A stretch of 63,979 nt of DNA, the filler included, from Catajapyx aquilonaris (lineage: Eukaryota): the NCBI GenBank assembly GCA_000934665.2. It is 3 parts of 3 records of this genome, joined end to end, with 100 filler letters (N's around TTAATTAATTAA, not from the genome) between each part and the next. Parts side by side here need not be neighbours in the genome. Positions count along the whole stretch, not along the records: positions 43,418 to 63,979 come from JYFJ02006234.1; 2 more parts are not named here. One strand, given 5' to 3'. Each line of letters begins with the position of its first letter. Position 1 is the first letter of the stretch. The position numbers and the translations under genes are program-made. This document shows, in pieces, positions 13,722 to 63,979 of this stretch. The notes beneath the pieces are model-generated. The model made no database searches and was not told the origin of the DNA. It saw nothing but the letters and a program-made list of their open reading frames with translations.

Positions 13722-13722
<1 letters not shown>

Positions 13723-13795
<73 letters not shown>
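13723..13795. repeat. (TAA)n microsatellite
   Basis: Read directly from the sequence. Confidence 0.95.
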
Positions 13796-26472: not shown

Positions 26473-26520
26473 TAAATATTTTGTTTGGGGAGAACTAAGC
26501 ATAATTTATTTCTGTTTCAG

Positions 26521-29500: not shown

Positions 29501-29782
29501 AAAGATGTAGCCAAGCGAAGGAAGAGGGAATCCTCTAGCTCCTCCAGTAGCAGTAGTAGCAGTTCAGAAAGCTCCAGTAGCAGTTCCTCTAGCGAGTCCA
29601 GCAGAGGAAAGCGCAGGAAGGGAAAGCGCAAGAGAGTGTCATCATCTTCCAGTTCTGACAGTTCTGATAGTGAATCAACAGATTCTGAACGTGAGAAACG
29701 TCGAAGACGCAAGAAGAGGGAAGCCCGCAGAAAGGCTGCTAGTAATAAAAAAAAATCAAAGAAACGCTCCAAGCGTAGGTGA
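26521..29782 (+). CDS. RBBP6: large terminal coding exon of a probable E3 ubiquitin ligase RBBP6/SNAMA-like protein
   Basis: About 1086 open codons after a TTTCTGTTTCAG acceptor (26520). K/E/R/S-rich, with RS dipeptides and a poly-Ser tail. The islands PELSKWERDE, ITSEVLKRAENAIFQKAISAIRP and LDECNFEPDY match my recollection of insect RBBP6 C-termini. No DWNN, Zn-knuckle or RING exons are visible in the window. Confidence 0.7.
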
Positions 29783-41886: not shown

Positions 41887-42704
41887 CTGTACCAAATGAT
41901 GAAAATGATGTATTCACCTTATACGAACTCACAGTCACACTAGTCAGTCACAAATACACATGTTGTTACACTGCCCAAGTTGACAATCCAGACAAGAGGG
42001 AGTAGTCCACCTCCAATGTGCATGTGTCGCGAATGAGAAAAAAAATATGGAACCCTAAAAGAAGCTCCAAACCTTGTTCATAGCCTTGGAGTTCTCATCA
42101 TGCTGCCCAGGAGTGGCTAATCAATTTACTCTCCCACGTACTCCGTCTTCGGTCCGTCAATTTGGGCAGAGTACAGTACCACCCTGTATAATAATTATAA
42201 TGCATTCAGACTTATTATAGTACTGGCGATGGCGTCATATGGGGCCACAATGCCTGTCAACAATATCACTTAAAAAGGAATGACATCTAATGTGACAACT
42301 AATGCTGAATACATCGTAGCACGTAACCATTAGCTGAAGGTCGTTAACAGCAGTGACGAATCTCCCAAATTCTTTCCTCCAGTTTACGCATTTTTGTCAT
42401 TCAAATAAAACTGATTTTCCAGTGTGATTTGTGTGTGTATTCTCTTGGAGAAGTCAAATTAGCTAAGTTCACTAGACATGGTGGTGGGTCAGATAAGTTT
42501 ATGACAGAGAGGAAACGGATGATTCCCGAGAAAACCCGCGTGAACTCCTGGGAACCAGAGGGTCACTCTCTTTTTGTAGATGTGTAATTTAGTCCCCACA
42601 GCCTTCTTACCGAGATAATGAGTATAAACACTACGTATAAAATACACTGGCAGATATGCAGCACACCGCACCACATTGTCTTATTTTAAATTTCGGTATT
42701 GTCA

Positions 42705-43317: not shown

Positions 43318-43417
43318 NNNNNNNNNNNNNNNNNNNNNNNNNNNNNNNNNNNNNNNNNNNNTTAATTAATTAANNNNNNNNNNNNNNNNNNNNNNNNNNN
43401 NNNNNNNNNNNNNNNNN
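43318..43417. other. assembly spacer (Ns with TTAATTAATTAA)
   Basis: 100 nt, identical to the first spacer. Confidence 0.97.
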
Positions 43418-43847: not shown

Positions 43848-46800
43848 TCGACAGTCCCGTTCCAAATCCAGAGTGTGATATGCAACGAACGCAGAAAGTT
43901 TTGTCGACGTGGTATCCACGAGAAAAACTGCTTAGACATGCTGTGGGCATCGGCAGCGGGGGATGTATGCAGAGTTAAGGAGCTCTTAAACACCGACGTT
44001 GATCCTGATGTTACTGATGGCGACGGAAACACGGCTCTTATACTAGCCAGTGTTAGTATCAATATGATATTATGTGAAATCATGAGAAAGTAAGTACCAT
44101 AATGAGAGTAATCATTGTCACGCAGGCGGTTTGGGAACCCCAAGTTGTGACACTGCTTCTGGACTGGGCTGCCGATGTAAACGTCACGAATGATGAAGGG
44201 TTCAGTCCTCTTTTAATAGCTCTGTACAGATACTTTCACTTGTACAAGAAGGTGGAAAAATTACAGGGATTGTACACAATAACAAAGAAAGCCTCATCGG
44301 TCTCAGAACATAATAAGCAGCAGACCATTTGGACAGGGGAACCTGAGCTCACTGCAGTAAAAAGTAGTACGAGAATAAGCGCCCCACGAGGAAGTATCAA
44401 GCCAACATCTGATCAAAGTCGTCACAGAAGTTCTCTTCTTACTGCTTCAAAATCTGAAGCAAAAATCAAAGTCGTTACTGAACCTGTGCGAAATACTACC
44501 ACATCAACAAAGGTCGTGGACGCTCGTTTACTGAAGCTGTACTTCTACACGCCCTACGGTTTGATTCGCGGGAAGAACTTGGAGTTCTCTCCCAAAGCGT
44601 TCGTTCCCATCCCGACTTATTCTGCACCACAAATAACAACATGTCAATCAAAAGACAGCAGCAGTGGACCTCAGTCCTCGTCGACCTTCAGATTTCGTAG
44701 TCCATCAACAAGCACTGACCGTCCTTCTCGGCGGCTGCCTGAAATAGAAGGCCCGTCACATGCGATGCCCACAAAATCCAAGTATGCATATGTCTTTGTC
44801 AATAATAATATTATTAGTTGACCCTGTACACTAGCTATTTTGTATGCCTGTGTAGGTCCTTGTCCATTCACGACGCCACACAGAAAATGATCACTACTGT
44901 GGAGGTCCTCCTGAAACGAGGTGCAAACCCCAACCTGCTATCAGGGGATGTGACCCCGCTGACACTGGCAATAAGGGCTGGTGACACGACCATCGTCGAC
45001 CTGCTGCTAAAATACGGGGCCAGCCCAGAACAAACTCTTTCTGAAGAAGAAGGTAGCGTCGCACCCATCCATCTGGCAGCAAGTTTGTCCACCACGCCTC
45101 AAGGACCAGCAATAATCATGTCACTGGTAATGTCACAAGAATTTTGATTAGGCTATAATATTTTCAGCGTATAATTGCGTGGTTTCATCCAACAGATCCA
45201 ATCAGGGGCAAATCTCTCTCGACGCATGAAACCGGATTCTTCATACATTTCCACCTTGCCTGAGCGCAAATTAGAGGTGATGGAATGGACAAAGCACAAG
45301 AACTTTCAGTTACAAGGAAAGCAGGCTCTCCACATTGTATGCGCGAAGGATACACAACCAGGGACACACATTGAACCAGAGGTGAAAAGTGGTGGAAAAC
45401 CCGAAATCACTCCAATTAAAAGCGCAATAATATTATTGAAAAAGAAAGCCCACGATGATAACCCGACAGTCAAATTCGGACTGCATTCAGTATCAAGAAG
45501 TGACAGTAACGCAAGAATAGTAGCACACATCGGTGAACAAGCAAGGAGCAAGTCGAAAACATTGAGACATAAATCAATAGATTCTGGAATGAATAAAGGC
45601 CTCGACAGTGACGGTGCTGGTAAGACCAGAAAGAGCAGAGATGTCTCTTTAGGGAGGGGTGAAAAGAAAACTGTGATCTCCGATAAAAAAACGCAAGTGG
45701 CCATTGAGCACACTCCAGGTAAGGACTTTATAAGGAAGGACTTTCGTAATCAGAGATTATTGAGTTATGATCGATATTTTCAGTCCAAGGCAGAGTGAAG
45801 AAAGAGGAAGAGAAAAGAATGGTACAGTACAGACTCATGGCGGTCGTTAAGAGTCTGGTAAAGGCCGGAGCAAATGTCAACGATGAGGTCAACGGTCAGA
45901 ATCCTCTGTCGTTGGCCATTCTCCATGGAAATGACGCTCTGCTCCCAGTGCTTTTAGAAGCGGGTGCTGATCCCAATAAGAAACTCACCATGGGCACTGG
46001 ATCCGCCATGGGTGCTGCCCTCAGCACAGAAGGCGAACGTGACCGCAAGTTTCTGGACAGGAAGAAAGTCGTAGACGTACTGATGGGTATGGGTAAAGCA
46101 GACCTGTCACAAGAGTGTCGTTTCACCCCACATGAAGGTGACATAGGAACTGCGATTGATTTATTCCACAGGAGAATTCAACAGGAGAAGTACGATATTG
46201 TTACAAAAATAATGTTGCTCGCATGATCCTGATTTGTTGTTATTCCAGAATGGATGGAATTTCTAAGGATTACTTAAAGAAGGATAGGAAGAAGTTGGCG
46301 GTATATTTGGGAAGTCTTTCGCGCAACAAGTTCTTGGGAAAAATTACTCCACTCTTAAAGGTCTTGAAAGATCCAAACCTCACTAAGAATGAAAGAGAAG
46401 AACTCGTAAAGGAATTGAAAGAATCGTTATTTGAGAAGCTCGGCAAGTCACCAAACGTAACCGAAAACTACTAGATTTTCCTTGTGATCTTTATTACTTG
46501 TAGTATTATTGGAAACCCTCATAAGTCAGGTGCAATATATGATTATTTCTTCCCAATAGCAAGCCAAAGATGCGATAGCTTCCATGAAGTTCTGTTTTAA
46601 CTGCGGTCAAGTACTACGCGGCAAGATAACAGCTGAGTGCGAAATCTGTACGATGCCATTCTGTTCTCAGGATTGCAAATTAGCAGCCATGAATCGCGGG
46701 CACCGAGAAAAGGAATGTCCCAGGATAGTAGGTAAGTACACTTTCCTTTTACTTCATTGAGACACAAGATTGTTGCTTAAACTTGACGGAGACTTATGCA

Positions 46801-47147
46801 ACTTACACTTCTTTCTGAAGTTAATGCCATAGCTAAACATACTGTAAATGTCGTTATGTTTCAGATTGCCAAACAATAATCAATCCAGTAGCAGCGAGAC
46901 GTGTACGAGCCAAAAAAGACAACAGAATGTGTAAGAATATCACGATTGCGTTATTCTGCCGATGGCCACTCTAAAACAGATTATATGATAATTTACTGAT
47001 TAAATTTCAGATAACCCGCCTAAACCCATTCTGCGTCGGTCTGTTGGATACATACTCACTGAATGCAGGGACATGAAAGTTATCATTACGCCATCAGAGG
47101 GCACCCTCCACGCTGTTCCTAAGAAGGAAAATTACAGCATAAATTAA
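43848..47147 (+). CDS. ANKMY1: ANKMY1-like copy A (exons 4-12; MORN exons not seen before the spacer)
   Basis: Exons 43848-44051, 44126-44781, 44856-45126, 45196-45718, 45784-46189, 46249-46456, 46560-46731, 46865-46930, 47011-47147; all GT-AG and phase-consistent. Ankyrin repeats, MYND finger CFNC...CEIC...FCSQDC...H...C, ending ENYSIN-stop. AATAAA at 47182. Confidence 0.88.
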
Positions 47148-47329
47148 TCTGTTGATGCTTACATTATTTTACAATGTTTACAATAAAGTCGTTTACATTC
47201 CAAATTAGGGATCCATAATTTCTCTTTCAGCCCCTTCTTTCCTATTATGCCATGTACAGTAATAGTTTACATTGAAAGTTGCTAGACAGTATCAGCTTGA
47301 ATATTATTTACGATCCTCATCCACTCTGA

Positions 47330-47362
47330 TTGTCGCCTTTGTTTACCGTTTCCAAGGTTGTC
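47330..47362 (+). promoter_or_regulatory. conserved upstream motif of copy B (forkhead-like TGTTTAC plus X-box-like GTTTCCAAGG)
   Basis: TTGTCGCCTTTGTTTACCGTTTCCAAGG; the same motif recurs upstream of copies C and D. Confidence 0.55.
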
Positions 47363-47572
47363 ATTCGAATCCAATTCAAACTAACGAGATTTTACTTCGC
47401 GATAGGTTGACAGGGAGAGAGTACGTGTCTTTCGCGTTAGGTTTGCAAAAGCAATTATACATTTTACTTCGTGTCAGTTTTAATGCTATAGGGAAGTTTA
47501 CGTTTATTTCGTATCAGTTTTACAAAGCAGGCGAGAGTTTATTTACCGCTAGTTTTAGGAGCGTTTGCTGGT

Positions 47573-50500
47573 ATGAGTACTTTAGATTATTTAGGTCAGT
47601 TCGATTCCGATGAATTGCGCTCCGGGGAAGGTACTCAGAAATATTCGAAGGATGAGGTAACTACGTCATTTTGTCATTCATATGACTACATTATATGAGA
47701 AACTAACATTATGCATGCTTCTGTTACCTGCAGATATGCCGAGGGAATTTTGTCCACGATTGCCCGCATGGATATGCTGAATACACATGGGAGGGAAACG
47801 TCACATACAAAGGGTATTTCTACATGGGACAGAAAGAAGGATACGGATGCCAAACCTATCCAGATGGACGGGTTTTTCACGTAAGTTACATTACCTTATT
47901 CAGTTACCGCCTCTGCAATTATATTGGCCTAAATTGTGGCCTGCCATTTTTTTTAAAAAAATCACACAGCTTTTTATACCATGACTCTGTAGTGTGTATA
48001 CATACATTCACAGGGACTATACAAGAGCAACAAACGCCACGGACCAGGAGTCCAGACGTATCCTACAGGCCACCAAGACGTTGGAATTTGGGAAGATGAT
48101 AATCTCATCCGGCTCTGCACCAGGAGGTCTCTTCTAACAACTACACTGCCTCCTCTTGGACAAATGAAGGGCAGGATGAGAATCTTAGAGTCTAAACCGC
48201 CACGCAACCGTCCTATGGAGATACTCCTGGATGCAGGGGGTCAAGGTCTCGAGGAATATGTCGGATATCTGTGCAACCCTTACGTGCGGCAACCAAAAAG
48301 TCTGAGCATGAACCACGCCTTTCTCCAAGCAATGCACAGAAAGGGAAAACCCTGGGGACCAGACTACAGGATTGTAGCCTGGAATAATACCGACCACATG
48401 TGTGACATGCAGTTGTACATTTTCAACAATCGACATGCTCAGGTTTGGACAATAACACTTTTGTTGACGGGCATGGTCTTTCGTGGCAGTTTATTATGCA
48501 ATAGCAATCTGTTACGCTTCAGTGTTTTCGTGTTTATCTATATTCAACATATCGCTTAAACCAGTTTTTCCACATAACTGAATATATTTCTTCCAGGATG
48601 AAACCCCGATCAACATTAAAAACATCATATTAAACGATCGCACCAGTTTTTGCCTTCGTGGAAAGGATGAACAAGACTGCCTCAACTTCATGTTGGCTTC
48701 GAAAGAGGGAGATTCAGAGACAGTAAAAAAGCACTTGTCGAAGGATATCTATCCTGATGTTTCCGACGGCGAAGGGAACACTGCTCTTATCCTAGCCAGT
48801 GTTAGTACTAATTAGCAATAATTGTACTGTGTAATATGTTCGTGGTAACAGGTAATAATAACAACTTTCATGCAGGCCTACTGGGAACCCGAGGTTGTGG
48901 CACTGCTTCTAGATAGTGGTGCCGATATCAACGCAATAAATGATGAAGGGTTTAACCCACTCCTAATAGCTTTGTACAGATACTTTTTCGAGTACAAGAA
49001 GGTGGATAGGTTAAGAGGAGTATTCGCGGGCTTAGTAAAAAACCAACAGATCACAGCTTCACAAGAAGCAGAGCCTATCATATGGACAGGGGAACCTACA
49101 GTTATTCAGAAAGAAACCAGGAGGCCTAGCTTATCAAGAATATCAAGGCTTACCGCGAGTCGCTCTAAGATGAGCCGCTTGGACATGAATAAATCTGAAA
49201 AGAGAGAGGTGCCAAGTCCTAAATCGAAGACGAATGTTGCCAAGAAAGTTACCACAGTAAGAGATGAAATGAGATCTCGACTGCTGACACTGTGTTCCTA
49301 CTCACCATATGGCTGGGCCCGTGCAACTCGGCTATACCAGCCCAAGAAGTATCCAATTCCTGAGCCATTCCCTCAATGTGAAATAATTAAAGACGATTCA
49401 CAGGAAGGTCATCTTCCAGGACTGAGTTCGGCCTTCCGCCTCGGAAGTCTTCCACAATGGTCTTCTATGAGAATTGGCCTTCCTTCTTGGTGGGTGTCTG
49501 AGACAGACAACCAAAGTTCATGGAGGATCAAGAAAGTCAGGTGTCGTATTGTTTTTGTCGCGTTATTAATCTTAACAATTGTTGGACAGCTATTGTAATA
49601 TGTTTCCTCTATCCAGCCCGACCCTTGACGAAGCAACATCCAGAGTGCTCAAGACAGTGGAGCTTCTTCTGCAGAGAGGTGCAAACCCTAATTTTCTCTC
49701 AGGGGATGTGACCCCGCTGACACTGGCAGTAAGGGCTGGTGACCTGGCCATTGTAAACCTACTTCTTAAACACGGGGCCAATCCGGAGCAAACTCTTCCC
49801 GAAGAACACGGCAGCATCGCACCCATTCATTTGGCAGCAAACACAGCCTTCTCTCCTGACGCTCCGGAAATCATCACATCACTGGTCAGTGCAAACAAAA
49901 GACTGACAGAATCATACCTTAGTCGTCTGACTCTACTTGTACACAATAGTTTTTACAGTAGCTGTTGGGTGATTTGTGTGTAAATAATATTGGTCGATTG
50001 TAATTCGCCTGTGCTAATATTGTAGAGTGATGTGACTTATGCTTTCCATCAAACAGGTGAAGGCTGGCAGTACTGTTTCCCGACGAGTGGATCCTGATGC
50101 CGCATATATTAGTATCTTACCTGAACGCAGATATGAGTTAGCTGAGTGGGTGAAAAAAGATAATTTTCAACTGCAAGGAAAGCAGGCTTTACACATTGCA
50201 TGCGCTAAAGAAGTACTCACTTGTAAGGAATCCATCATAAGAGTAGACAAATCAAAGGCAGAGCTAGCTCCAATTCAAAGTACTATGATGGCAGAGCAAG
50301 AAAAAAAGTATTTAGCCCAGGATGATTATTACTCAACGGAAAGATCCACCACTCGCCTAGCTGGTGTACTGTCAACAACCTCAGTTACTCTCAAAAGATC
50401 ATCGGGTACATTAGACCGTCAATGGTCAACAGGTACTGTCGCAAGAAATGAGACCAGCAGGCAGTTTATGGCAGGAAAGGACCAGAAATCGAAAACGAAC

Positions 50501-52110
50501 ATCAGAATCGATGGATCTATAGGCAATGGCAGAAGAGACATTCGTGGAAGCCATGACAAAAACAGGAGGTTCAGCCTGAAGAGTCTTGACAGAAATAAGT
50601 CATTCACTAACCGTAGGAAGAGCGCTGGAAATGGTCGCGGAGAAGCACAGGAAGAGGCTAAGAAATCTGTAACATTTGCGGCCGATAAAGGTAATGCAGC
50701 ACATTGATCACGTCCGTTCTATTTGGACATGCTTGTGTTATTATTATTTTTTAAATCTTTCTTAGCAGAGACTTGTGTACCAAGAAAGGGGACCAAGAAT
50801 GCAGAAGAAAAGCGCGCACTCCTGAAGACTGTAAAGAGTCTGATACAGGCCGGAGCGGACGTGAACGAAGAGGTCAATGGTCAGAATCCTCTGTCACTGG
50901 CCATTATACACGGAAACGAGAATCTTCTTCCGGTTCTGTTGGGAGCCGGAGCCAATCCCGATAAGCCGCTGACTATGGGTACCGGTAGCGCCTTGGGTGC
51001 TGCGGTCAGCACTGATTCCGAACGTTTCCGCACGTTTCAGCAGAGAAAACAAATCGTGGAGACGTTGCTAACCAAAGGCAACGCTGACCTCAGTCGTCCC
51101 TTTCAAATTACTGTGGCTGAGACTGGGAATGCTGTCGATTTATGTAACAAGAGGATTGCACAGAATAGGTACGTTGTTGTGTAAAATTCATGGGCATGAT
51201 ACTAATTAACAAATATTACAGGGGTTTTAGAACACCTAAAGGCGATAAATTGCCAATTAATCCTGAATTGAGGCACAATCGGCAGAAAATGCAGGATTAT
51301 ATATCAAAAAAAGCCCGCGATCAATTCCTGCAAAAGATAAAAGATATTAAAGCAGCTTTGATGGATCCCAAGCTTGATGACGCAAAGAGGAAACAATTCG
51401 TAATGGAACTTCGAGATCTCTTATTTAAATCTGGCACTGGCAGCTCGACAAATGTAAGCGATAACCTAAACAGTATTTCGAATATATTCGTGCGTCGTCT
51501 TATGTAATGTATACTACAGCCCAACATTATGATTTGTTTCCCTAATCAGAAAGCCAGTTCACTAGATGGAATCAACTTCTGCTTCCAATGTGGTCGCTTA
51601 TTACATAATAAGTTTGCTGCATTCATGTGTCCAATATGTTGGATGCCATTTTGTACCGCAAGATGCAAAAGGGAAGCCATGGCGCAAAAACACCAGAAGA
51701 AGGAATGTCTCTTGATAATCGGTGAGTGCCGTTTCATTTTACTTCAATATTGGGCGCAGCATAGATTGTCCATCAAACTTGTAACCAAAATGTAAGAAAT
51801 AACAAGTAATTTCCATCAACAAAATGCACAAGTGTATCGAAGTGATTTATTTTCAGAATGCCGAAATATGGCCGATCCAGAAGCAGGGCTGATTAAAGAT
51901 GAAAAACGTCTATGTAAGAATTTGCAGTTATTTATACGTAGAAAATATACTGAATCTATTTGCTTAATTTCAGGCAAGAATCCCAAGCCCATCCTGCGCA
52001 GGGCTGTAGGATATATACTAACTGAATGCAGAAACAGGAATGTTGTACTGACCCCAACTGATGTCGCCTTCTATACCGATACTGGAAGGGAAAATTATAG
52101 CGCGAATTAA
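47573..52110 (+). CDS. ANKMY1: ANKMY1-like copy B, complete 12-exon model (about 1143 aa)
   Basis: Exons 47573-47656, 47734-47880, 48014-48442, 48597-48800, 48876-49540, 49617-49884, 50057-50690, 50766-51168, 51222-51453, 51550-51721, 51857-51913, 51974-52110 (3432 nt, in frame). MORN repeats (GLYKSNKRHGPGVQTYPTGHQDVGIW), ankyrins, MYND CFQC...CPIC...FCTARC...H...C. Confidence 0.92.
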
Positions 52111-52266
52111 ACATTTTATAGGCCTGTCTAAATGTGCAAAATAAAGTCCGGGTCATAAATATGTCATCTGCTTGGGGAAATGAAGGGAGTGAATCTATGG
52201 GAAAACTGAAATCCATATTCTTCAATTTACTGTACTATAATGTACAGACCTATTAGCAACCATAAG

Positions 52267-52299
52267 TTGTTGCCTTTGTTTGCTGTTGCTATATGAATC
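52267..52299 (+). promoter_or_regulatory. conserved upstream motif of copy C
   Basis: TTGTTGCCTTTGTTTGCTGTTGCTATATG, about 170 nt before the ATG. Confidence 0.5.
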
Positions 52300-52436
52300 A
52301 CCTTCGGGCCGTTTCGAACAGGGGGGAAAGACGTTTTTTTTCACTCTTGGCGACCTTTTTCTTTTTTCTTTTTTCTTTACAATCCCAGGGAAGGGTTTTT
52401 TTTAACCGTCAGATTTACAAAGGAACTATTGCAAGA

Positions 52437-55400
52437 ATGGGTTTTTCCGAACATCAGAATCCGTTCGACTGCCATGGAACTGGGGAGGGTACTAAGAAAC
52501 TTTCTAAAGACGAGGTAACGTATCTGGTTTCGCAATTCGACAAACTTTGAACCTGCTTCAGCAAATATTCATAACTATCATCTTCACTTCTTCCACCCGC
52601 AGGAATGTCGAGGTAGTTTCGTCAACAATGTCCCGCATGGATATGCTGAATACAAATGGGAAGGAAACTTATCATACAAAGGGAATTTCTACATGGGCAA
52701 GAAGGAAGGATATGGCTGCCAAGCCTACCCAGATGGACGAATTTTTTACGTACTGTATCTTGCCTATGTGAAATATTATAAATGCTACATGATTCATTGG
52801 ATTCGATATTGCCTATTTTCACAGGGGCTCTTCAAAGACGACAAACGCTACGGACCAGGCGTAGAGACATATCCTACAGGTCACCAAGATGTTGGATTTT
52901 GGGAAAATAACAGACTCGTTCGACTCTGTACTAAACAGACTCTTATACCAGCACCACTGCCTTCTCTTGGACAAGTGAAGAACAGGAGGAGAATACTGGA
53001 GTCCAAACAGCCACGCAACCGTCCTCTGGAGATACTGCTGGAGGCAGGGGGTCAAGGTCTCGAGGAATACGTCGGGTACCTCTGCAACCCACATGTGCGA
53101 CAACCAAAAAGCCTCAGCGTGGACCACGTGTATCTCAGAGCAATTCATAGAAAGGGTAAACCCTGGGGACCAGACTGCAAGATGGTGGCCTGGAATAATG
53201 CAGATCACTTGTGCGATATGCAGGTGTACACATTCAACAATCGACATGCTCAGGTTTGGATAAATCACTTATTTTCCCAGGATGTACAGTACTTCAAGTT
53301 GATGTTTATCTTTGCAAAAAAAACATTTATTAGTGGCAAAATACATAGAGAACTGTGTGTGCCACATTTAAATGCTGTAGGCGCTCTGCACCCCAGGTTC
53401 GTAAAGTACACTATGATGCGTCAGCGGATTGTGTACAGTATAGGGCAGATCGATGAATTACAAGGCCTTCCTCTAACCAATTTTTAAAAACTAAGATGTG
53501 CTAACTTTAAATTATTACTGTGTCTGTTTAATGTCGCTGAACACATGCTTCGTCTGATCTTCTCTAATCCATGCATAATAGTGACTTGAATTAACTTGAT
53601 TACACTGGGGAACAAATTTTTGGTTGAATTGACACCAGCACTTGTTCTTATCTCATTTGAGTGTGCTGAATTCAAATCTGATTTTAGTTTTTCTCTGTAA
53701 GCTCCAGATTTTCTACAATTCAATTTTTTCAGTTATTGCGACATTTTGACGCCTGTCGCATGATGACATGATCTCTATGAGGAATACATATTATAGCCAT
53801 ACAGTCTTGAAATTAGGCTTACACAACCGTCTTGGTAAAGATAATATTACTCGTATTTTTTATTCACGAAAAAGTCGTAGATGCATCACAACATGCACTG
53901 ATTAAACTTTGAAAAAAGTCACAAAATATCGAAAAAGAATGTGCCAAGTTTTAAATCCTATAACTCGAAAACTTGTAGGAATTAATGGTTTAAGTTTTGA
54001 AATGCTAAGAAATGTCTAAGGTTTAGGGCTCACCGTAGTTTGTTTCGATATGAACTTCATTTTTCGCTCGGCAAAATAATATAAATATGGTAATCGGTGT
54101 CGTGCCTAACGAGCTCAGATATATCATGTCTGGGGTTACCGTTGCAATGCTTTTTTTTCCGTACGTGCTGATGATGCTAGATCTTTTCACCATACATGCA
54201 GCATACATGTATCTCCATACAAAAGTCAATCGGGGTAAGATCTGGGATTCTGGTGGGATAGGCATTAGGAAACTTCTCATTCAAGACTTCGCACACTGAA
54301 AGGATGAACAAGTGAAACTTTCCTAAGGCAGGTTTGTTTGGATGAGGATACTTTTCATGTGCATCATCAAGAACAATGTGTGTGGTGTAAAGACCAGTCA
54401 TCTTTCACCACCTATACTGGTTAATATCGCAACGGTAACTCCAGATACGCGTACTATTGAGCGGGTTGGGCTCAAGACCGAATACAGTATTTTTCTATTT
54501 CTCGAGCAACAAATGAAGCTCATATCGAAACAAACTAAGGTGAGACCAAAACTTAAAACATTTAGATATGTCTGCAAGTTTTCTACTTATAGGGTTTTAA
54601 AATTGGAACATTCTTTTTCGATTTTTTTAAAACTTTTTTCTAACTGTAATACATAATTATTGAGATGCTTGAAAACATTCACGAACTGTTTCATCAAGCT
54701 GAGCTCATATGGTTCATGCAAGTTATTCCACCTCTATATCTGTAATGTCACATTTAAAATGTTACAGGATGACACGCCGTTCAGTGTTGAAACTGTGATA
54801 TGCAACGAGCGCACAAAGTTTTGCCGCCGTGGTAAGCACGAAGAAGACTGCTTGGGCCTCCTGTGGTCTTCGAGAGAGGGCGATATAGACACTGCTAGAA
54901 AGCACCTGATGAACCAAATCGATCCTGATGTGACGGATGGCGAAGGGAACACCCCTCTCATCTTAGCCAGTGTTCGTGTTGGTTGAGTTACATCGTTACA
55001 TAAAATCCATGGTAATATTAATGACTACTATACTTTCATGCAGGCCTTCTGGGAACCCGAGGTTGTGACACTGCTTCTGGACTGGTCTGCCAACACCAAC
55101 GTCACGAATGATGAAGGGTTCAGCCCACTTTTAATGGCGTTGTACAGATACTTTTACTTACACAAGAAGCTTGATAAGTTAACGGGATTGTTCTCCTCAA
55201 ACATCTCCCAGAGAGGCCCATCCTCACCTTATATAGAAGATGAGCCTATCATATGGGGAGGAGAACCTAAAATTTCACATGGAGGAGGCAAGAGCACCTC
55301 TAGATCTGTCGCGAGTCATCTTAAAATGGGCCGCCTTGCCAAATCGACATCAGAAAAGATAGTTGCAGATCCGGCGACAAATTCACCCCCGGAAAGAGAT

Positions 55401-58400
55401 GAAGCTAGAGAGAGACTACTAACTCTCCTTTCCTATTCTCCCTACGGCTGGGCTAGGATGAATCGTGGGACATACCTACCCCAAAAGTTCAGAAATCCTA
55501 TTCGTCAAGGTCAACCATCCCCTCCACCACAGGCTAAAGAAGCACATGATGAACAAGAAGGTCACCTTCCAGGATTAAGTTCGGCCTTCAGCATTGCTCT
55601 GAACTATGAGCCGTTTGACTCAACACATGACCTTCCTTCTTGGTGGGTGTTTGAAACAGATGACCCATTAGAGATGCCCATAAAATCAAGGTTCGTAATG
55701 GTTACGTCACGGTGTCCTAACAGCTGCGGTTGCAAATGTTTCATACTGCGGTCTCAACAGACCGGATCTTGACGATGCAACATCCAGAGCGCTCAAGACT
55801 GTGGAGATTCTTCTGCAGAGAGGTGCAAACCCCAATTTTCTCTCCGGGAATGTGACCCCGCTGACACTGGCAGTAAGGGCTGGTGACCTGGCCATGGTCG
55901 ACCTACTTCTGAAATACGGGGCCAGGCCAGAGCAAACTCTTCCTGAAGAAGTAGGCAGCATCGCACCCATTCACCTGGCAGCAAACGCAGCCTACTCTCC
56001 TGACGCTCCCAAAATCATCACATCACTGGTATTAGTAGGCTAGTGTTTTAATATGACACATGGACAGATGTAATATTAATATTCTTGTCACCTGACAGAT
56101 GAAAGCTGGGGGCAGTGTTGCCCAACGCGTGACACCGGATGATTCATACCTTTCAACTTTGCCCGAGCGCAAAGCTGAGATAGCTCAGTGGATGAGGGAA
56201 GAGAATTTTCAGCTGCAAGGGAAGCAGGCGTTGCACATTGCATGCTCCAAGGAAATACTCCCTTATGAAGAAACAATCGCAAGAATGCGAAAGGAGACAA
56301 CTAATGCGGATCTAACCCCTATTAAAAGTGCTATTAAGACAAAGGAAGAAAAGTATCGTCCCCAAGATAGTTACTCAAGTCTGAAATTAAACACCGATAG
56401 GAGAGGCACAGTGTCATCTATGAGAAGATCTATCGCAAGCACCACAAAGATTGGAATAGACGAACGGAGGGTAGCACGCAGTGACGATAGAAGAAGATCC
56501 ACGGCGAGAAATCAGCCGAGTGAAGGCAAGGAAAAGAAGGTGAGATTTGGCGACACGAATGACACGTCTGAAAGCCCTGGTATATCGTGTAACAACAACA
56601 ACAAAAGCAGAGAAATTATTCAGTATGATGCTACATCCTCCCATGAACAAAGGATGCATGAAATGAGGTTGCATATGCGGAAGCGTAAAGGTAAGGCTTC
56701 ATTTGACTGCACGTGGTTACTCTCACATTCGAGACTTGCCATTCAAATAATCTCACATGACAATGACATTATTATTAAGACTGTCTCACATTGCAGCCGA
56801 AATTTCAAGGGAAAAGGCCACACTCCTGAAGACTGTAAAGAGTCTGATAAAGGCCGGTGCGAACGTGAACGACGAGGTCAACGGTCAGAATCCTCTGTCC
56901 CTGGCCATTATCCACGGAAACGAGAATCTTCTTCCGGTTCTGTTGGGAGCCGGAGCCGATCCCAACAAAGAACTGTCTATGGGTACCGGTAGCGCCTTGG
57001 GTGTTGCGGTCAGCACTGATTCCGAACGTTCCCGAACCTTTGAACAGAGGAAAGATATTGTGGAGATGCTGGTAGGAAATGACAAAGGTGATGTCACCAA
57101 GGCGTTGCGAGTCACCCCTAAAGATAGAATCAACCCTATCGATATATACTACAAGAGGATTGATGAGCACTCGTGAGTTTTGAGACCCCTTCAGCCATGC
57201 AGACAGGGATGCAGAGGTTAAGATCGTGTAATGACATGTTGACTCTTCCAGAAAAGCTAATCCCATGCTCCAAAAGGAACAGAAGGTCTTCCTAGTCAAA
57301 CAGAGGGGGATGATGTCGCATTATTTGGGAGAAAAATTTCACTCCACACTCATAAGTAAACTAACTTCCATTAAGAAGGCTCTGCTGGGTCGTCTAGATT
57401 ATGAAGAGAGACAGAGATTAACAGCTGAATTTAAGCGTTTGCTGACTTCTTCTGTCGACTTGCCAACAACAGTATGTGATGATCAAAGTATCTCAATTCC
57501 GGATTTCTTTGCAGCATTAAAGGCACCTTTTTAACTGTCAACAAGAAGAGGGAATGCTCTCCTTTCTGACCTCTTTTAAAGAATATTGCAGTTCGTTGGC
57601 TTGCTAAGAATACAGTATTATAATTCGTAACGAATTTTATTATGCCGTTTTTGGCAATATGATTGATGCAGTGGTCAAGTATAATATTAATTTCCAAGTG
57701 AGGCAGTAAATTTTTTACAGTGTTCTAAACCCATCTATTCCGTACCTTAACTACAGTACTACTGTATAGTGTCTTTATGTCGTAAAATTAATCTGGACGT
57801 TCTTAAAAATAATTTAATTCACTTTAATATTCCGACTGTCTCTCAAAAATAGGTATTGAAGGAACTGAAAGCCATCATATTCTGCCTTCAATGTGGTCGA
57901 AAAGTTACGGAGAAGATACCAAAAAACACATGCCAAGTCTGTAAAATGATGTTCTGCTCTCATGCTTGCTTCGTCCGTGCAATGAAGAGAGGGCACAAGG
58001 AACTTGAATGCGTTATGCTAGAGGGTAAAGAAGCATAATTTCACTTTATATCTATACAGTAGAGGGTTGTAATATCTCGTCCAGTTTTATAATCAACTAC
58101 CGGTACGCTAATGAGGGCTTAATTTTTCAATAGCCTGCTTTTCTATGTGTAACTAATGAATCTCATGGTTATGTTTCAGAGTGCAGAGAAATAGTCAAAT
58201 CACTCTTTCATGATGAGACTTCTCCTCCAACTCCTCCACCTCCTCCACGTAAGACAATTTTGTTTTACACATACACCATGTGTTAAATCGTGAATAATTA
58301 ATAAACAAAATATTTGCAGGTAAAATAAAGGAGCACAAACCCCCGCCCAAGCCTGTCCTACGCCGAGCCGTAGGATACATACTAACCGAATGCAGAGACA

Positions 58401-58474
58401 TGAAGGTTATGCTTACACCAAGCGAAGCTACTCTCCACGCAGTTCCTAGGAAAGAAAATTACAGTATAAATTAA
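52437..58474 (+). CDS. ANKMY1: ANKMY1-like copy C, complete 12-exon model (about 1118 aa)
   Basis: Exons 52437-52514, 52603-52749, 52825-53253, 54768-54971, 55044-55690, 55761-56028, 56099-56690, 56797-57172, 57252-57471, 57853-58024, 58180-58248, 58320-58474 (3357 nt, in frame). GLFKDDKRYGPGVETYPTGHQDVGFW...VRLC matches the ANKMY1 MORN signature. MYND CLQC...CQVC...FCSHAC...H...C. Confidence 0.92.
53911..54640 (-). mobile_element. Tc1/mariner-derived element with long inverted arms in intron 3 of copy C
   Basis: Arms at about 53911-54085 and 54480-54640 (TAGTTTGTTTCGATATGA / TCATATCGAAACAAACTA). The internal minus-strand remnant VCEVLNEKFPN...PDLTPIDF...IATVTPDM resembles the WPPRSPDLTPLDF catalytic region. 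Confidence 0.75.
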
Positions 58475-58690
58475 ACAGTTGATTGAGAAATATGTATAAT
58501 AAATGAAGTGGTCGCAGCAATGTCACAGGGCGCAGCAGAGTTTTCTGCGAAACATGTGACTAATGAAAGAAAAATGGATTTGTGGTTTTCCTTCTTCCCC
58601 CCCCCCCCTCTCCCCCCGACAAAATANCCCTCTCCCCCCGACAAAATATTGCGTCTGACATTTTTGCCACTCATGCTCATTACGTTATGA

Positions 58691-58725
58691 TTGTTGCCTT
58701 TGTTTAGTACCGTTTCTATGGATCG
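58691..58725 (+). promoter_or_regulatory. conserved upstream motif of copy D
   Basis: TTGTTGCCTTTGTTTAGTACCGTTTCTATGG, about 175 nt before the ATG. Confidence 0.55.
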
Positions 58726-58865
58726 CCGTTCTGGCCGTTTCGATCGAGGGGAAAGGCGCTTCTTTTTTTTTACTCAGCGCATTTTTTTTTTTACCTGCAC
58801 ATTTTTTTTTTCGAAAACCAGAAGAGGTTCATTACCATTAGATTTTAAAAGGTCCAACTGTAGGA

Positions 58866-61800
58866 ATGGGTTTTCCTGATCATCAGAGTCCGTTCGACTG
58901 CCATGGAACGGGGGAGGGTACTAAGAAACTTTCTAAAGATGAGGTAACGTATCTGGTTTAGTACCGTAATTAGTCTGACTTCAACCTACTACAGTAAATA
59001 TAAGATCTTTCACCTTCACTTCTTCCACCCGCAGGAATGCCGAGGTAGTTTCGTCAACAATGTCCCGCATGGATATGCTGAATACACGTGGGAAGGAAAC
59101 TTATCATACAAAGGGAATTTCTATATGGGCAAGAAGGAAGGATATGGCTGCCAAGCCTACCCGGATGGACGAATTTTTTACGTAATGTGTCTTTTCTGTG
59201 TGGAATATTATAAATGCTACATGTTTCATTGGATTCGATAATACCTATTTTCACAGGGTCTCTTCAAAGACGACAAACGCTACGGACCAGGCGTAGAGAC
59301 ATATCCGACAGGTCACCAAGACGTTGGATTTTGGGAAAATGACAGACTCGTTCGACTCTGTACTAAACAGACTCTTATACCACCACTGCCTTCTCTTGGA
59401 CAAGTGAAGAACAGGAGGAGAATACTGGAGTCCAAACAGCCACGCAACCGTCCTCTGGAGATAATGCTGGAGGCAGGGGGTCAAGGTCTCGAGGAATACG
59501 TTGGGTACCTCTGCAACCCTCAGGTGCGACAACCAAAAAGCCTCAGCGTGGACCAAGCGTATCTCAGAGCAATTCATAGAAAGGGAAAACCCTGGGGACC
59601 AGACTACAAGATGGTGGCATGGAATAATGAGGACCACTTGTGCGATCTGCAGGTGTACACATTCAACAATCGACATGCTCAGGTTTGGATAAAACACTTC
59701 TGTTCCTTGGATGTAACATTTTAAGGTTTATAAGCTGATGCTTATCTTTGTAAAAAAATCCATTTATCGCCGGTAACGTACATAAAGAGGTGTTTGTGTC
59801 ACATTAAAATGCCGTGGGCGCTCAGACAGGACATGGTGTATAAAATATAGAAGGTAGGACTATAGTGCCTGCCGATTCTGTAGGGGAGATCGATGGAAAT
59901 TATTGCACGGCTTGTAACCAGTCAATATTATGATAATGAGATATGTTTACTTTACATAACGGGTCTTTCAATATTGCTGAACACATGCTTCTTCTCTAAT
60001 CCACAAATTATCATGCCTTGAAATCATATAACTTATTTATTGAATAAAACACTGACTTCTGTTTACAATGGTAATCTACTTCTATTGGAAAATTAAAAGG
60101 ATCCTTGATTAAAAGAATGCTTGTGCTATTGTGTACTAACAATAAGTACGCAAACATGTAGCTCATGAGGAGGGGTATATGGTTCATGAAAGTTATTCCA
60201 CCCCTATATCCGTAATTTCAAATACGTAATGTTCCAGGATGACACACCGTTCAGTGTTGAAACCGTGATATGCAACGAGCGCACAATGTTTTGCCGCCGT
60301 GGTAAGCACGAAGAAGACTGCCTGGGCCTACTGTGGTCTTCGAGAGAGGGTGATTTAGACACTGCTAGAAAGCACCTGTTGAACAGAGTGAACGCGGATG
60401 TGACCGATGGCGAGGGGAACACGCCTCTCATCTTAGCCAGTGTCCGTGTTGGTTCAGTTACATCGTTGCATAAAATTCTTGGTAATAATACGAATGACTA
60501 CTTTCATGCAGGCCTTTTGGGAACCCGAGGTTGTGTCACTACTTCTGGACTGGTCTGCCAACATCAACGTCACGAATGATGGAGGGTTAAGCCCACTTTT
60601 AATGGCGCTATACAGATACTTTCACTTACACAAGAAGCTTGATAAGTTAAAGGGATTGTTCTCCTCAAACATCTCTCAGAGAGGCCCACCCTCAGCTTCG
60701 ATAGAATGCCCAGTAGAAGACGAGCCTCTCATATGGGCAGGAGAACCTAAAATTTCACGCAAGAGCAACCTATCAGTACCGTCTGGAACTGTCCAGAGTC
60801 ATCTTAAAATAGGCAGTCTTGGAAAACCGACATCAGAAAAGATGTCTGTTGATGAGCCGGTGACAAATTCACCCCCGGAGAGAGATGAAGCCAGAGTGAG
60901 ACTACTAACTCTCCTTTCCTATTCTCCCTACGGCTGGGCTAGAATGATGAATCGTAGGATATACCTACCCCAAACGTGCAGCAATCCTATTCGTCCACCA
61001 TCCCCTCCACCACAGGCTAAAGAAGCACATGATGCACAAGAAGGTCACCTTCCGGGATTGAGTTCGGCCTTCAGAATTGCTCAGCACTCTGAGCCGTATG
61101 ACTCAAGACATGACCTTCCTTCTTGGTGGGTGTTTGAAACAGATGACCCATTAGAGATGCCCATAAAATCAAGGTTCGTTATGGTTGTGTCACGGTGTTA
61201 TTCCTGACAGTTGCTGTTGTCGATGTTTCATACTACTCTCTCAACAGACTGGACCTTGACAATACAACATACCGAACGTTCCAAACAGTGGAGATTCTCT
61301 TGCAGAGAGGTGCAAACCCCAATTTTCTCTCAGGGGATGTGACCCCGCTGACACTGGCAGTAAGGGCTGGTGACCTGGCCATGGTCGACCTACTTTTGAA
61401 ATACGGGGCCAGGCCAGAGCAAACTCTTCCTGAAGAAGTAGGCAGCATCGCACCCATTCACCTGGCAGCAAACGCAGCCTACTCTCCTGACGCTCCCAAA
61501 ATCATCACATCACTGGTATTAGTAGGCTAGTGTTTTAATATGACACATGGACAGGTGTAATATTAATATTCTCACCACCTGACAGATGAAAGCAGGAGGC
61601 AGTGTTACCCAACGTGTGATGCCGGATGGTTCATACATTTCAACTTTGCCAGAGCGCAAAGCTGAGATAGCTCAGTGGATGAGGGAAGAGAATTTTCAGC
61701 TGCAAGGGAAGCAGGCGTTGCACATTGCATGCTCCAAGGAAATACTCCCTTATGAAAAAACAATGTCAAGAATGAGAAAGGAGAGAGCTAATGCGGATCT

Positions 61801-63140
61801 AACCCCTATTAAAAGTGCTATTAAGACAAGGGAAGAAAAGTATCGCCCCCAAGATAGTGATTCATATCAGAAATTAAAACCCGATAGGAGAGGCACAGTG
61901 TCATCTATGAGAAGAACTATCGCAAGCACCACAAAGATTGGAATAGACGAACGGAGGGTAGCACGCAGTGACGATAGAAGAAAATCCACGGCGAGAAATC
62001 AGCCGAGTGAAGGCAAGGAAAAGAGCGTGAGATTTGGCGACACGAATGACACGTCTAGAAGCCCTGGCGAATTGTCTAACAACAACAAAAGCAGAGGAAT
62101 TCTAAAACAGCCTACATCAGCCCAAGAACAAAGGGGAAGAGAAAAGGGGGCTGAAAAGATCGTGAGATTTGGCAACAAGAAAGACACGTCTCAAAGCCCT
62201 GGTGAATTGTCTAACAACAGCAACAAGAGCAAAGGAATTAAAAATGATGCTGTACCAGCCCAAGAACAAAGGAAACATGAAAAGAAACCAACCACGAAAC
62301 GTATGAAGAAGCAACAAGGTAGGAATTCTTTTGACTCCACGTTATGCTTCTCACATTCTCAAACTGTCATTCAAATAAAATCGCATGATAAACACATATG
62401 TATTAAGCCTGTCATGTTGGAGTCACATTTAATTTACTGACTCAACCAATCATTTTAGAGCTGAATAAGATGACCCAAATTTCAAGGGAAAAAGCCACAC
62501 TCCTGATGACTGTGAAGAGTCTGATAGATGCCGGTGCGAACGTGAACGAAGAGGTCAACGGTCAGAATCCTCTGTCACTGGCCATTATACACGGAAACGA
62601 GAATCTTCTTCCGGTTCTGTTGGGATCCGGAGCCGATCCCAACAAAGAACTGTCTATGGGTACCGGTAGCGCCTTGGGTGTTGCGGTCAGCACTGATTCT
62701 GAACGTCACCGAACCTTTGAACAGAGGAAACGCATTGTGGAGACACTGGTAGGAAATGAAGGTGATCTCACCAAGACGATTCAAGTCACCCCTAAAGATA
62801 GAATCACCCCTATCGATATATTCCACAAGAGGATTGCTCAGGACGAGTGAGTTTTGTCATCCCTTCTGTCATGTAGAGGTGAAGAATCGTGTAATGACAT
62901 TTTTTCGCTTCCAGAAACGCTAAACGCAAGCGCATGGTCCCAGATGAACAAATGGTTACCGTACGTAAACAAAGGGGGATGATGAACAATTATTTGGCTG
63001 AAAACTTTCGCTCTACACTCATTAGTAAACTAACTGACATTAAAACTGCTCTGATGGGTCGTCTGGACGATGAAGAGAGACGGAGGTTAATGACTGAATT
63101 TAAGCGTTTGCTGGTTTCTGGTGTCAAGTTCTCAACATCG
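58866..63140 (+). CDS. ANKMY1: ANKMY1-like copy D (exons 1-9; MYND exons expected beyond the window)
   Basis: Exons 58866-58943, 59035-59181, 59257-59682, 60238-60441, 60512-61173, 61248-61515, 61586-62318, 62459-62846, 62915-63140. Phases match copy C, and several introns align with copy C. Confidence 0.9.
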
Positions 63141-63510
63141 GTATGTGATGATCAAGATATCTCAATTCCGGATTTCTTTGCGGCTTAAAACGAGCATTTG
63201 CAAATAACACTAAGAATGCTCCCCTTTCTGACCTTTCCTGCTTATCAAAAATATACTCCATAACTAATTTAACTGATGTTTTATAGGAGATAGAAATGGT
63301 ACAGCAGTCAAGTAAAGTTCATTTCCAAATGAGGAAGAAAATTTTAACAGCATTTTAAACCCGTACGGAACTACAATAGATGAAATTTTAACGAGCGCAA
63401 CAGAATTCACACCAACACCTGCCCAAGCTCATTGTTCTGACAACAACTTTGCCATAATTACCCCTCACAAATTCACATCGGTAGCCTTCTAGAGTCTAGA
63501 AGGTATTCAA

Positions 63511-63979
63511 TACTATGGGGCACAAATTATTTTAGCCACTTTATCCTGGTCTTGAAGCAACCATTCGCACAGGCCCCGTGGTGAGGAGGTGTGATCAGGT
63601 CTTGACTAAGGTCTGGGGACGGAAGTCTGTGGTTTTACTGTAGCTGTGGGGACCAGTTCCAATTGTGGGGACATTTGTCGGTCCCCACAGTCTCACACAC
63701 GCGAAGTGTACCATTACAGTGGGGACATGTGTAAATTAGTTGGGACATGTCCCCACTATTTTCATTTGTAGGGTTTCACAAAAGTCCATTTTTCTCAGCC
63801 TAGGTTACTTAGGGTAGGGTAGGTTAGGTAGGATAGGGTAGGTTAGGTAGGGTAGGGTAGGTTAGGTTAGGTTAGGTTAGGTTAGGTTAGGTTAGATCAG
63901 TTTACACTCGCAGTGAAAAGTGATCAATGTCCGTCCCCACGCCTTAGTCAAGACAAGAGTTGTGTGTGTGTGTGTGTGT
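63511..63979. mobile_element. MITE family B copy 4 (left arm and centre; runs off the window)
   Basis: TACTATGGGGCACAAATT...GGTCTTGAAGCAACC...GGTGAGGAGGTGTG, then an insert, then (TG)n resumes at 63961. Confidence 0.85.
63594..63960. mobile_element. nested element with subterminal inverted repeats and a (TTAGG/GTAGG)n array
   Basis: GTCTTGACTAAGGTCTGGGGACGG (from 63599) pairs with CCGTCCCCACGCCTTAGTCAAGAC (to 63954). Internal TGGGGAC repeats. TTAGG-like array at about 63800-63895. Confidence 0.8.

What the first reader, a model, noticed from the sequence alone, without database searches (positions are those of the whole stretch)
43848..63140. Tandem array of at least four intact, diverged ANKMY1-like genes
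Seen: four head-to-tail copies with identical intron positions and phases and no stops or frameshifts in the spliced models; only about 330-430 nt separate a stop codon from the next ATG. C and D are recent sisters (their introns align), while A and B are much more diverged. Known: ANKMY1 (MORN-ankyrin-MYND) is linked to motile cilia and sperm and, as far as I know, is normally single-copy. Inference: a lineage-specific expansion, possibly for sperm flagella or chordotonal cilia, with conserved folds and fast-evolving inserts in exons 5, 7, 9 and 11.
Basis: partly seen in the sequence, partly recalled or inferred. Interest (0 to 1): 0.8.

Follow-up and report, generated by a model that had tools for sequence, protein, structure and literature searches.

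The report
Tandem array of four ANKMY1-like genes
Four neighbouring copies of a sperm-tail scaffold gene (ANKMY1) lie head to tail in this arthropod-type genome and selection has kept them readable, which is an ordinary lineage-specific gene expansion whose use is untested because no RNA data were found.

Summary
The + strand carries four head-to-tail MORN-ankyrin-MYND genes. All splice sites are GT-AG, all intron phases match, and no exon has a stop or frameshift.

- **Completeness:** only B (47573-52110) and C (52437-58474) are complete. A starts at exon 4 because its contig begins at 43418, just after a scaffolding linker. D ends at exon 9, where a very high-copy repeat starts and the window ends.
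- **Family:** every named relative is ANKMY1. The match to oyster and frog ANKMY1 is collinear from end to end. The top solved-structure hit is the ANKMY1 chain of PDB 9ijj.
- **History:** the four copies form one clade, with C and D as sisters (support 100). Synonymous divergence is graded: C-D 0.17, B-C 0.81, A-others 1.1-1.5. dN/dS is 0.35-0.53.
- **Not haplotypes:** C and D differ by 6-18% in six of their eight shared introns, against about 2% for an alternative contig.
- **Limits:** function in the sperm central apparatus is inferred from mouse cryo-ET only. No RNA run was listed. A firefly also has two adjacent copies, and earlier unchecked notes of this scan describe many tandem arrays in this genome.

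Verdict: a new member of a known kind, of modest interest.

The parts
43848..47147 (+). Copy A, exons 4-11 (43848-44051, 44126-44781, 44856-45126, 45196-45718, 45784-46189, 46249-46456, 46560-46731, 47011-47147). 858 codons, TAA stop. Exons 1-3 are not assembled.
   Evidence: GT-AG, phases, no stops. (no E1-E3 anywhere in the window). (the contig begins at 43418 after a linker).
47573..52110 (+). Copy B, complete, 11 exons (47573-47656, 47734-47880, 48014-48442, 48597-48800, 48876-49540, 49617-49884, 50057-50690, 50766-51168, 51222-51453, 51550-51721, 51974-52110). 1124 aa.
   Evidence: Pfam finds MORN and Ank. Family-specific MYND HMM scores 23.6 bits.
52437..58474 (+). Copy C, complete, 11 exons (52437-52514, 52603-52749, 52825-53253, 54768-54971, 55044-55690, 55761-56028, 56099-56690, 56797-57172, 57252-57471, 57853-58024, 58320-58474). 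1095 aa from the ATG homologous to those of B and D.
   Evidence: The start codon is aligned with B and D.
58866..63140 (+). Copy D, exons 1-9 (58866-58943, 59035-59181, 59257-59682, 60238-60441, 60512-61173, 61248-61515, 61586-62318, 62459-62846, 62915-63140). 1044 codons, open, ending at a GT donor. Exons 10-11 are not in the window.
   Evidence: Similarity to C stops at about 63234.
47148..47572 (+). A-B spacer of 425 nt, with AATAAA/ATTAAA 35 nt after the A stop.
   Evidence: Contigs of 3 runs bridge 47041-48367.
52111..52436 (+). B-C spacer of 326 nt, with a poly(A) signal 30 nt after the B stop.
   Evidence: Contigs of 3 runs bridge 50924-52638.
58475..58865 (+). C-D spacer of 391 nt, with a poly(A) signal 24 nt after the C stop. 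It holds a C/T-rich low-complexity run and one N at 58627.
   Evidence: No listed contig piece bridges it.
53254..54767 (+). Intron 3 of C, 1514 nt against 555 nt in D and 154 nt in B. It is enlarged by a repeated element with inverted arms at 53901-54148 and 54426-54650.
   Evidence: inverted match, 70.9%. (word depth 1400-2300 against 17-65 elsewhere).
63235..63979 (.). High-copy repeat in the position of D's intron 9. Homology to C is lost here.
   Evidence: (word depth about 13,800-26,900 in bin 63143-63799).
43318..43417 (.). Scaffolding linker: 44 N, a 12-base spacer with stops in all six frames, then 44 N. The array contig starts at 43418.
   Evidence: An identical linker lies at 21668-21767.

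Best explanation
This is a real tandem array of at least four paralogous ANKMY1-family genes (MORN repeats, ankyrin repeats, a C-terminal MYND zinc finger). It was built by successive local duplications: A split first or nearly so, then B, then the C/D pair.

Each unit has its own ATG exon, stop codon and poly(A) signal, so the units most likely act as separate genes. Selection has kept the folded parts (MORN, ankyrin cores, MYND, C-terminal tail). The lysine/arginine/serine-rich linkers in exons 5, 7 and 9 drift and change length.

By inference from mouse, the proteins are scaffold subunits on the C1 microtubule projections of the central apparatus of the sperm flagellum, docked on CCDC180 near the radial-spoke interface. 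The paralogues would supply variant versions of that subunit.

Shown: structure, family, monophyly, purifying selection. Inferred: separate transcription, tissue, localisation.
For: - **Structure:** four copies with shared GT-AG introns, identical phases and no stops.
- **Domains:** Pfam finds MORN in exons 2-3 and Ank in exons 4-6 and 8. All eight MYND ligands are present in A, B and C. They score 23.6-28.8 bits against an HMM built from 22 homologues' MYND regions, and 0 of 3000 shuffles score above 8.8 bits.
- **Family:** all 4 hits are named ANKMY1. The clusters that carry names (4 of 10; 10 of 10) are ANKMY1, ANKMY1-like, 'MYND-type domain-containing' or hypothetical proteins with a UniRef ANKMY1 name. 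B aligns to oyster ANKMY1-like over 6-651 and 831-1086, and to Xenopus ANKMY1 in three collinear blocks. PDB 9ijj chain 5B (ANKMY1) is the top hit of the exon-3 profile, E 1.8e-10.
- **History:** the four copies form one clade and C+D are sisters, both with support 100, in FastTree (52 rows) and IQ-TREE quick (22 rows).
- **Selection:** dN/dS is 0.35-0.53 overall and 0.06-0.24 in exons 2-3 for C-D.
- **Gene ends:** poly(A) signals lie 24-35 nt after the three stops.
- **Adjacency:** per-run DNA contigs bridge A to B and B to C.
- **Function by analogy:** ANKMY1 is a newly identified C1 central-apparatus component in mouse sperm and contacts the CCDC180 N-terminal domain (passages read in PMC12297659, and bioRxiv 10.1101/2024.08.06.606614).
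Against: - A and D are incomplete in the window, so their intactness is extrapolated from 858 and 1044 open codons.
- Pfam zf-MYND is below its cut-off in A (19.4 against 22.7 bits) and is not reported for B or C.
- The clade sits on a long branch (about 1.0), and identity to any outside ANKMY1 is only 25-31% over long alignments.
- Neither tree contains other MORN or ankyrin families, so the trees cannot by themselves prove orthology.
- The C-to-D junction is not bridged by any listed contig piece.
- No RFX X-box lies in the three spacers (0 of 4 window-wide exact matches and 0 of 28 one-mismatch matches), so there is no promoter-level hint of a cilia programme.
- dN/dS of 0.6-0.76 in C-D exons 5, 7, 8 and 9 shows relaxed constraint on much of the youngest pair.
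Confidence: 0.8

Rival explanations
1. C and D are two haplotypes of one gene that the assembler placed in tandem, so the true copy number is three.
For: No listed contig piece bridges the C-D spacer. That spacer holds a low-complexity run and an N at 58627. C and D are the most similar pair.
Against: - C and D differ by 6-18% in six short introns. Synonymous divergence is 0.17 and exon 9 is only 61% identical in protein.
- They also differ by a roughly 1 kb repeat insertion in C's intron 3 and a roughly 141 nt internal duplication in D's exon 7.
- The one clear alternative contig seen, in copy A, differs by 13 substitutions and a 5 nt gap in 581 nt, about 2%.
- What lies upstream of D is C's own last exon, not a copy of B's.
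- Contig word depth over C and D is not half that over B. The tool warns that this depth is not a copy number, so this point is weak.
Confidence: 0.04
2. Only one or two copies are working genes. The others, for example 5'-less A or 3'-less D, are silent or decaying duplicates.
For: A has no start exon in the window and D has no MYND exon. dN/dS is raised (0.6-0.76) in several C-D exons. No transcript evidence could be obtained for any copy.
Against: - A keeps 858 codons open despite synonymous divergence above 1 from every other copy, with dN/dS 0.35-0.42.
- A keeps the exon-4 acceptor, and its missing part coincides with a contig boundary.
- D keeps 1044 open codons, and its break coincides with a repeat and the window end.
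Confidence: 0.1
3. The genes belong to a separate arthropod MORN-ankyrin-MYND family that only resembles ANKMY1, so the mouse central-apparatus role does not transfer.
For: - The clade sits on a long stem branch and has low identity to all outside sequences.
- Only 4 of 146 profile hits reach E 1e-10.
- The clade joins neither the beetle clade nor the deuterostome-mollusc-coral clade.
Against: - The domain order matches, and the alignment is collinear along the whole length, including the non-repeat region after the MORN repeats and the MYND finger.
- Beetle proteins that UniRef names ANKMY1 are about as distant from vertebrate ANKMY1 as the window clade is.
- No other named family appears among the hits that cover all three zones of the protein.
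Confidence: 0.06

Closest known systems
[quoted passage not shown]
   Same: Same order of N-terminal MORN repeats, ankyrin blocks and C-terminal MYND finger. Collinear alignment to Xenopus ANKMY1 (B 12-321, 523-584 and 836-1081 against 98-421, 504-565 and 662-902). Top PDB hit for the exon-3 profile.
   Different: Identity is 29-45% in the aligned blocks. There are long basic, low-complexity inserts in exons 5 and 7. There are four tandem copies instead of the one gene studied in mouse. The MYND finger falls below the Pfam cut-off. Localisation is not tested here.
Mollusc, hemichordate and echinoderm ANKMY1-like proteins (Saccostrea P0271, Saccoglossus P0262, Holothuria P0063)
   Same: These are the nearest outside rows by tree path. 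The alignment is nearly end to end (B 6-651 and 831-1086 against P0271 79-716 and 724-1014). Lengths are similar, at 1016-1129 aa.
   Different: About 25% identity. They carry roughly 75 more N-terminal residues.
Beetle ANKMY1 (Ignelater P0208, Henosepilachna P0158, Rhynchophorus P0147, Aquatica leii P0126)
   Same: An arthropod branch of the family, sharing the non-repeat motif after the MORN repeats. Aquatica's 2512-aa model is two adjacent copies that are 92.8% identical over 1176 aa, so it too is a tandem duplication.
   Different: Beetle proteins are longer (1136-1872 aa) and form their own clade. Two young copies there compare with four copies of graded age here.
Tandem MORN5 duplicates in the same genome
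   Same: Another cilia or sperm-tail gene in tandem copies, with a mosaic pattern of divergence attributed to gene conversion. Here B-C synonymous divergence drops to 0.18 in exon 6 and 0.43 in exon 8, against 0.81 overall.
   Different: A different gene family. I did not examine that locus.

Membership tests
ANKMY1 | N-terminal MORN repeats | tested here: met
   Pfam MORN is above its cut-off in exon 2 of B (28.5 bits) and C (35.1 bits) and in the C frame that reads exons 2-3 through intron 2 (37.2 bits). Exon 3 of B scores 21.6, just under the 22.5 cut-off. D's exons 2-3 are 94-98% identical to C's in protein. A cannot be judged because its 5' exons are not assembled.
ANKMY1 | Ankyrin repeat blocks in the middle and C-terminal half | tested here: met
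   Ank/Ank_2/Ank_4 are above cut-off in frames covering exons 5, 6 and 8 of B and exon 4 of A. Exon 8 aligns to ANKMY1 chain 9ijj_5B over 13-117 against 636-739.
ANKMY1 | C-terminal MYND zinc finger with eight Cys/His ligands | tested here: met
   The ligand pattern is found once each in A, B and C. They score 23.6-28.8 bits against an HMM of 22 homologues' MYND regions (22 of 48 homologues matched the pattern), with the best of 3000 shuffles at 8.8. Against this: the generic Pfam zf-MYND scores 19.4 bits in A (cut-off 22.7) and is not reported for B or C. D's exon 10 is not in the window.
ANKMY1 | Best and collinear similarity to proteins named ANKMY1 | tested here: met
   (4 of 4 hits), and names. 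In one search (exon 8 alone), generic ankyrin proteins outrank ANKMY1, as expected for a repeat.
ANKMY1 | Placement inside the ANKMY1 clade rather than another MORN or ankyrin family | tested here: inconclusive
   The trees contain only ANKMY1-like rows. The window clade is a third long branch beside the beetle clade and the deuterostome-mollusc-coral clade.
ANKMY1 | Component of the C1 projection of the axonemal central apparatus, bound to CCDC180 | not testable with these tools
   Known for mouse sperm only (passages read). No genome, RNA or protein data for this organism were reachable.
Tandem gene duplicates (unequal crossing-over) | Same strand, head to tail, shared exon-intron structure, divergence graded with age | tested here: met

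The most novel reading that the evidence does not exclude
The array encodes interchangeable variants of one central-apparatus projection subunit. Different paralogues, with different basic linkers, would be built into the C1 projection facing the radial spokes, tuning flagellar beat between sperm classes or under sperm competition. This would be part of a wider tandem expansion of sperm-tail genes in this genome; MORN5 is noted elsewhere as an unchecked lead.
Probability: 0.12. Interest if true: 0.6.

Novelty: new member of a known kind. Interest (0 to 1): 0.3.

Why it matters
ANKMY1 was placed in the sperm central apparatus only recently, and only in mouse. Its role there is unknown. A species with four diverged, selectively maintained copies offers natural variants. 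The conserved MORN, ankyrin, MYND and C-terminal blocks mark what the axoneme needs, and the variable linkers mark what is free to change.

Beyond that, this is a routine lineage-specific tandem expansion in a genome that earlier unchecked notes of this scan describe as rich in tandem arrays. It does not open a new question on its own.

Tried and rejected
- **RNA evidence:** no RNA holder was listed for 47500-57400. Run X5 (kind unknown) touched only the two repeats.
- **Whole genome:** none is held, so genome-wide copy number and a search for a further ANKMY1 gene were impossible.
- **Exon 8 as a query:** it returned mostly generic ankyrin proteins. Only 2 of the 120 listed rows are named ANKMY1.
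- **Profile search with exon 3:** 146 hits at E 0.001 or better, but none at 1e-30 or better. The nearest relative is a 108-aa unnamed fragment, so copy number in close relatives cannot be assessed.
- **Earlier findings:** searches by sequence and by place near the window found nothing.
- **RFX X-box scan of the three spacers:** no match. The consensus I used was recalled, not taken from a tool.
- **First tree run:** 52 rows with the mixture model did not finish. I replaced it with FastTree and a 22-row IQ-TREE run.
- **Splice-site scoring alone:** it did not pick the homologous junctions in several cases. I fixed the junctions from cross-copy alignments instead.
- **Literature:** one full-text search for ANKMY1 (72 papers, 25 listed) and one for the protein name with 'tandem' or 'arthropod' (15 of 9,204 listed). 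Neither listing showed a report of an ANKMY1 array, but I did not read the unlisted papers.
- **Supplements:** I did not open the supplements of the two cryo-ET papers. They may hold more detail on ANKMY1 contacts.
Full report
**What is there**

The window is eukaryotic DNA of about 40% G+C. A blastn self-comparison shows four similar units on the + strand between about 43.8 and 63.2 kb. Stop-to-stop frames in them carry MORN, ankyrin and MYND-like motifs.

I aligned the copies around each frame change and fixed the exon borders by coordinates. Every one of the 35 introns is GT-AG. The phases are 0,0,0,0,2,0,1,2,0,1 in each copy that has the junction, and no model contains a stop or needs a frameshift.

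- B (47573-52110, 1124 aa) and C (52437-58474, 1095 aa from the ATG homologous to those of B and D) are complete 11-exon genes.
- A is present from the exon-4 acceptor at 43848 to its stop at 47147 (858 codons).
- D is present from its ATG at 58866 to the exon-9 donor at 63140 (1044 codons).

The stop-to-ATG distances are 425, 326 and 391 nt. An AATAAA or ATTAAA lies 24-35 nt after each of the three stops.

**Why A and D are incomplete**

tblastn with the exon peptides finds no exons 1-3 upstream of A and no exons 10-11 after D.

Just upstream of A, at 43318-43417, lies a 100-base block: 44 N, a 12-base spacer that gives stops in all six frames, then 44 N. An identical block lies at 21668-21767 with unrelated flanks. 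This is a scaffolding linker, so the array contig starts at 43418, inside A's intron 3. What lies to the left is a Cys-loop receptor gene on the minus strand, and it need not be the true neighbour.

After D's exon 9, similarity to C ends at about 63234. The DNA contigs then show a word depth of about 13,800-26,900, against 16-81 over the genes. This is a high-copy repeat, and the window ends inside or just after it. Neither truncation is a mutation in a coding exon.

**Family**

- An exon-3 query returned four proteins, all named ANKMY1 (three frogs and an octocoral). Their tblastn matches on the window are collinear in all four copies.
- A profile of exon 3 from B, C and D, run against 1.84 billion representatives, gave 146 hits at E 0.001 or better, 4 at 1e-10 or better and none at 1e-30 or better. 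The window's own proteins and any close relative are therefore absent from that library. The best hit is an unnamed 108-aa fragment.
- Of 20 hits looked up, the named ones are ANKMY1 or ANKMY1-like from beetles, bivalves, a hemichordate and vertebrates. A few are 'MYND-type domain-containing' or hypothetical proteins with a UniRef ANKMY1 name. Six are unnamed.
- Spliced B aligns to oyster ANKMY1-like over residues 6-651 and 831-1086, and to Xenopus ANKMY1 in three collinear blocks.
- The top solved-structure hit of the exon-3 profile is chain 5B of PDB 9ijj, ANKMY1 (E 1.8e-10). Exon 8 matches the same chain over its longest stretch, although designed ankyrins score higher.

The MYND finger is the weak point. 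Pfam zf-MYND reaches 19.4 bits in A (cut-off 22.7) and nothing in B or C. All eight ligands are present, however. An HMM built only from the MYND regions of 22 homologues scores A, B and C at 23.6-28.8 bits, while 3000 shuffles reach at most 8.8.

**History of the copies**

In a 52-row FastTree and a 22-row IQ-TREE run, the four copies form one clade and C+D are sisters, each with support 100. The order of A and B is unresolved. The clade sits on a long branch beside a beetle clade and a deuterostome-mollusc-coral clade. The trees hold only ANKMY1-like rows, so they show monophyly of the copies, not orthology.

| Pair | Synonymous divergence (dS) | dN/dS |
|---|---|---|
| C-D | 0.17 | 0.53 |
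| B-C | 0.81 | 0.43 |
| B-D | 0.83 | 0.42 |
| A-others | 1.1-1.5 | 0.35-0.42 |

Constraint is strong in exons 2-4 and 11. It is relaxed in exons 5, 7, 8 and 9 of the young pair (0.6-0.76). Exon lengths vary in E5 (647-665 nt), E7 (523-733), E8 (376-406) and E9 (208-232), and in E11 only through a 6-residue insert in C.

Six of the eight C-D introns are 82-94% identical, whereas B-C introns do not align. B-C synonymous divergence falls to 0.18 in exon 6 and 0.43 in exon 8. A 264 nt core of exon 8 is 88% identical. This suggests patches of gene conversion. D's exon 7 carries an internal tandem duplication of about 141 nt.

**Are C and D haplotypes?**

This is unlikely. They differ far more than the one clear alternative contig seen: 13 substitutions and a 5 nt gap in 581 nt of copy A, about 2%. 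They also differ by a roughly 1 kb repeat insertion and by the exon-7 duplication. D is preceded by C's own last exon.

Per-run contigs (three runs, one sample, probably the assembly's source) bridge A to B (47041-48367) and B to C (50924-52638). No listed piece bridges C to D. That adjacency therefore rests on the assembly.

**Function**

Nothing from this organism bears on function. In mouse sperm, cryo-ET with model fitting identified ANKMY1 as a new component of the C1 projections of the central apparatus. It contacts the N-terminal domain of CCDC180, near the interface with radial spoke 8 (passages read in PMC12297659, and bioRxiv 10.1101/2024.08.06.606614).

I therefore read the four genes as paralogous scaffold subunits of the sperm central apparatus, with conserved docking folds and free linkers. 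This is inference. Earlier unchecked notes of this scan report CatSper2, TTLL6 and SPAG6 genes in the same genome, which fits flagellate sperm. They also report many other tandem arrays, which makes this array less special. No X-box was found in the spacers.

**Novelty**

The firefly Aquatica leii has a 2512-aa model made of two copies that are 92.8% identical over 1176 residues. I found no report of an ANKMY1 array in the listings of two full-text searches.

Verdict: a real, well-preserved tandem expansion of a known family, so a new member of a known kind, of modest interest.

Noticed in passing
window 26372-29779 (+): An uninterrupted 1136-codon open frame in a region of strong purine skew (AT skew 0.21-0.28, GC skew 0.14-0.18). 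Its only Pfam match is a weak sub-threshold SR-25 hit (20.1 bits, cut-off 40). It may be a large low-complexity single-exon gene.
   Followed up: no
window 39958-41913 (-): Exons of a Cys-loop ligand-gated ion channel: Neur_chan_memb at 39958-41107 and Neur_chan_LBD at 41455-41913. It lies on the contig to the left of the linker.
   Followed up: partly
window 13532-13834 (+): A weak, sub-threshold match to Pro-corazonin (20.4 bits, cut-off 25, E 7.4e-4).
   Followed up: no
window 21668-21767 and 43318-43417: Two identical 100-base linkers (44 N, a 12-base six-frame-stop spacer, 44 N) with unrelated flanks. The window is a scaffold of at least three contigs, so gene order across the linkers is not certain.
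   Followed up: yes
window 53805-55138 (intron 3 of copy C): A repeated element with inverted arms at 53901-54148 and 54426-54650 (70.9% identical). Contig word depth is 900-2300. It looks like a MITE-like or other transposon insertion that is absent from D and B.
   Followed up: partly
window 63235-63979: A very high-copy repeat (word depth about 13,800-26,900) begins where D's intron 9 stops matching C's.
   Followed up: partly
window 62012-62275 (exon 7 of copy D): An internal tandem duplication of about 141 nt adds a second copy of a basic, serine-rich segment. One stretch of C matches two adjacent stretches of D.
   Followed up: partly
window 57252-57471 vs 62915-63140 (exon 9 of C and D): Exon 9 is only 76.7% identical in DNA and 61% in protein between C and D. 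That is less than the flanking introns (82-84%) and the other exons (90-97%). It may reflect fast evolution or a mosaic origin.
   Followed up: partly
window 49617-49884 / 55761-56028 and 50807-51070 / 56811-57074: B-C synonymous divergence drops to 0.18 in exon 6. The exon-8 core is 88% identical, against about 70% elsewhere. This suggests interlocus gene conversion between B and the C/D lineage.
   Followed up: partly
protein P0126 (Aquatica leii, NCBI record named): A 2512-aa gene model that fuses two adjacent ANKMY1 copies, 92.8% identical over 1176 residues. It is a probable tandem duplication, or a gene-model fusion, in a firefly.
   Followed up: partly
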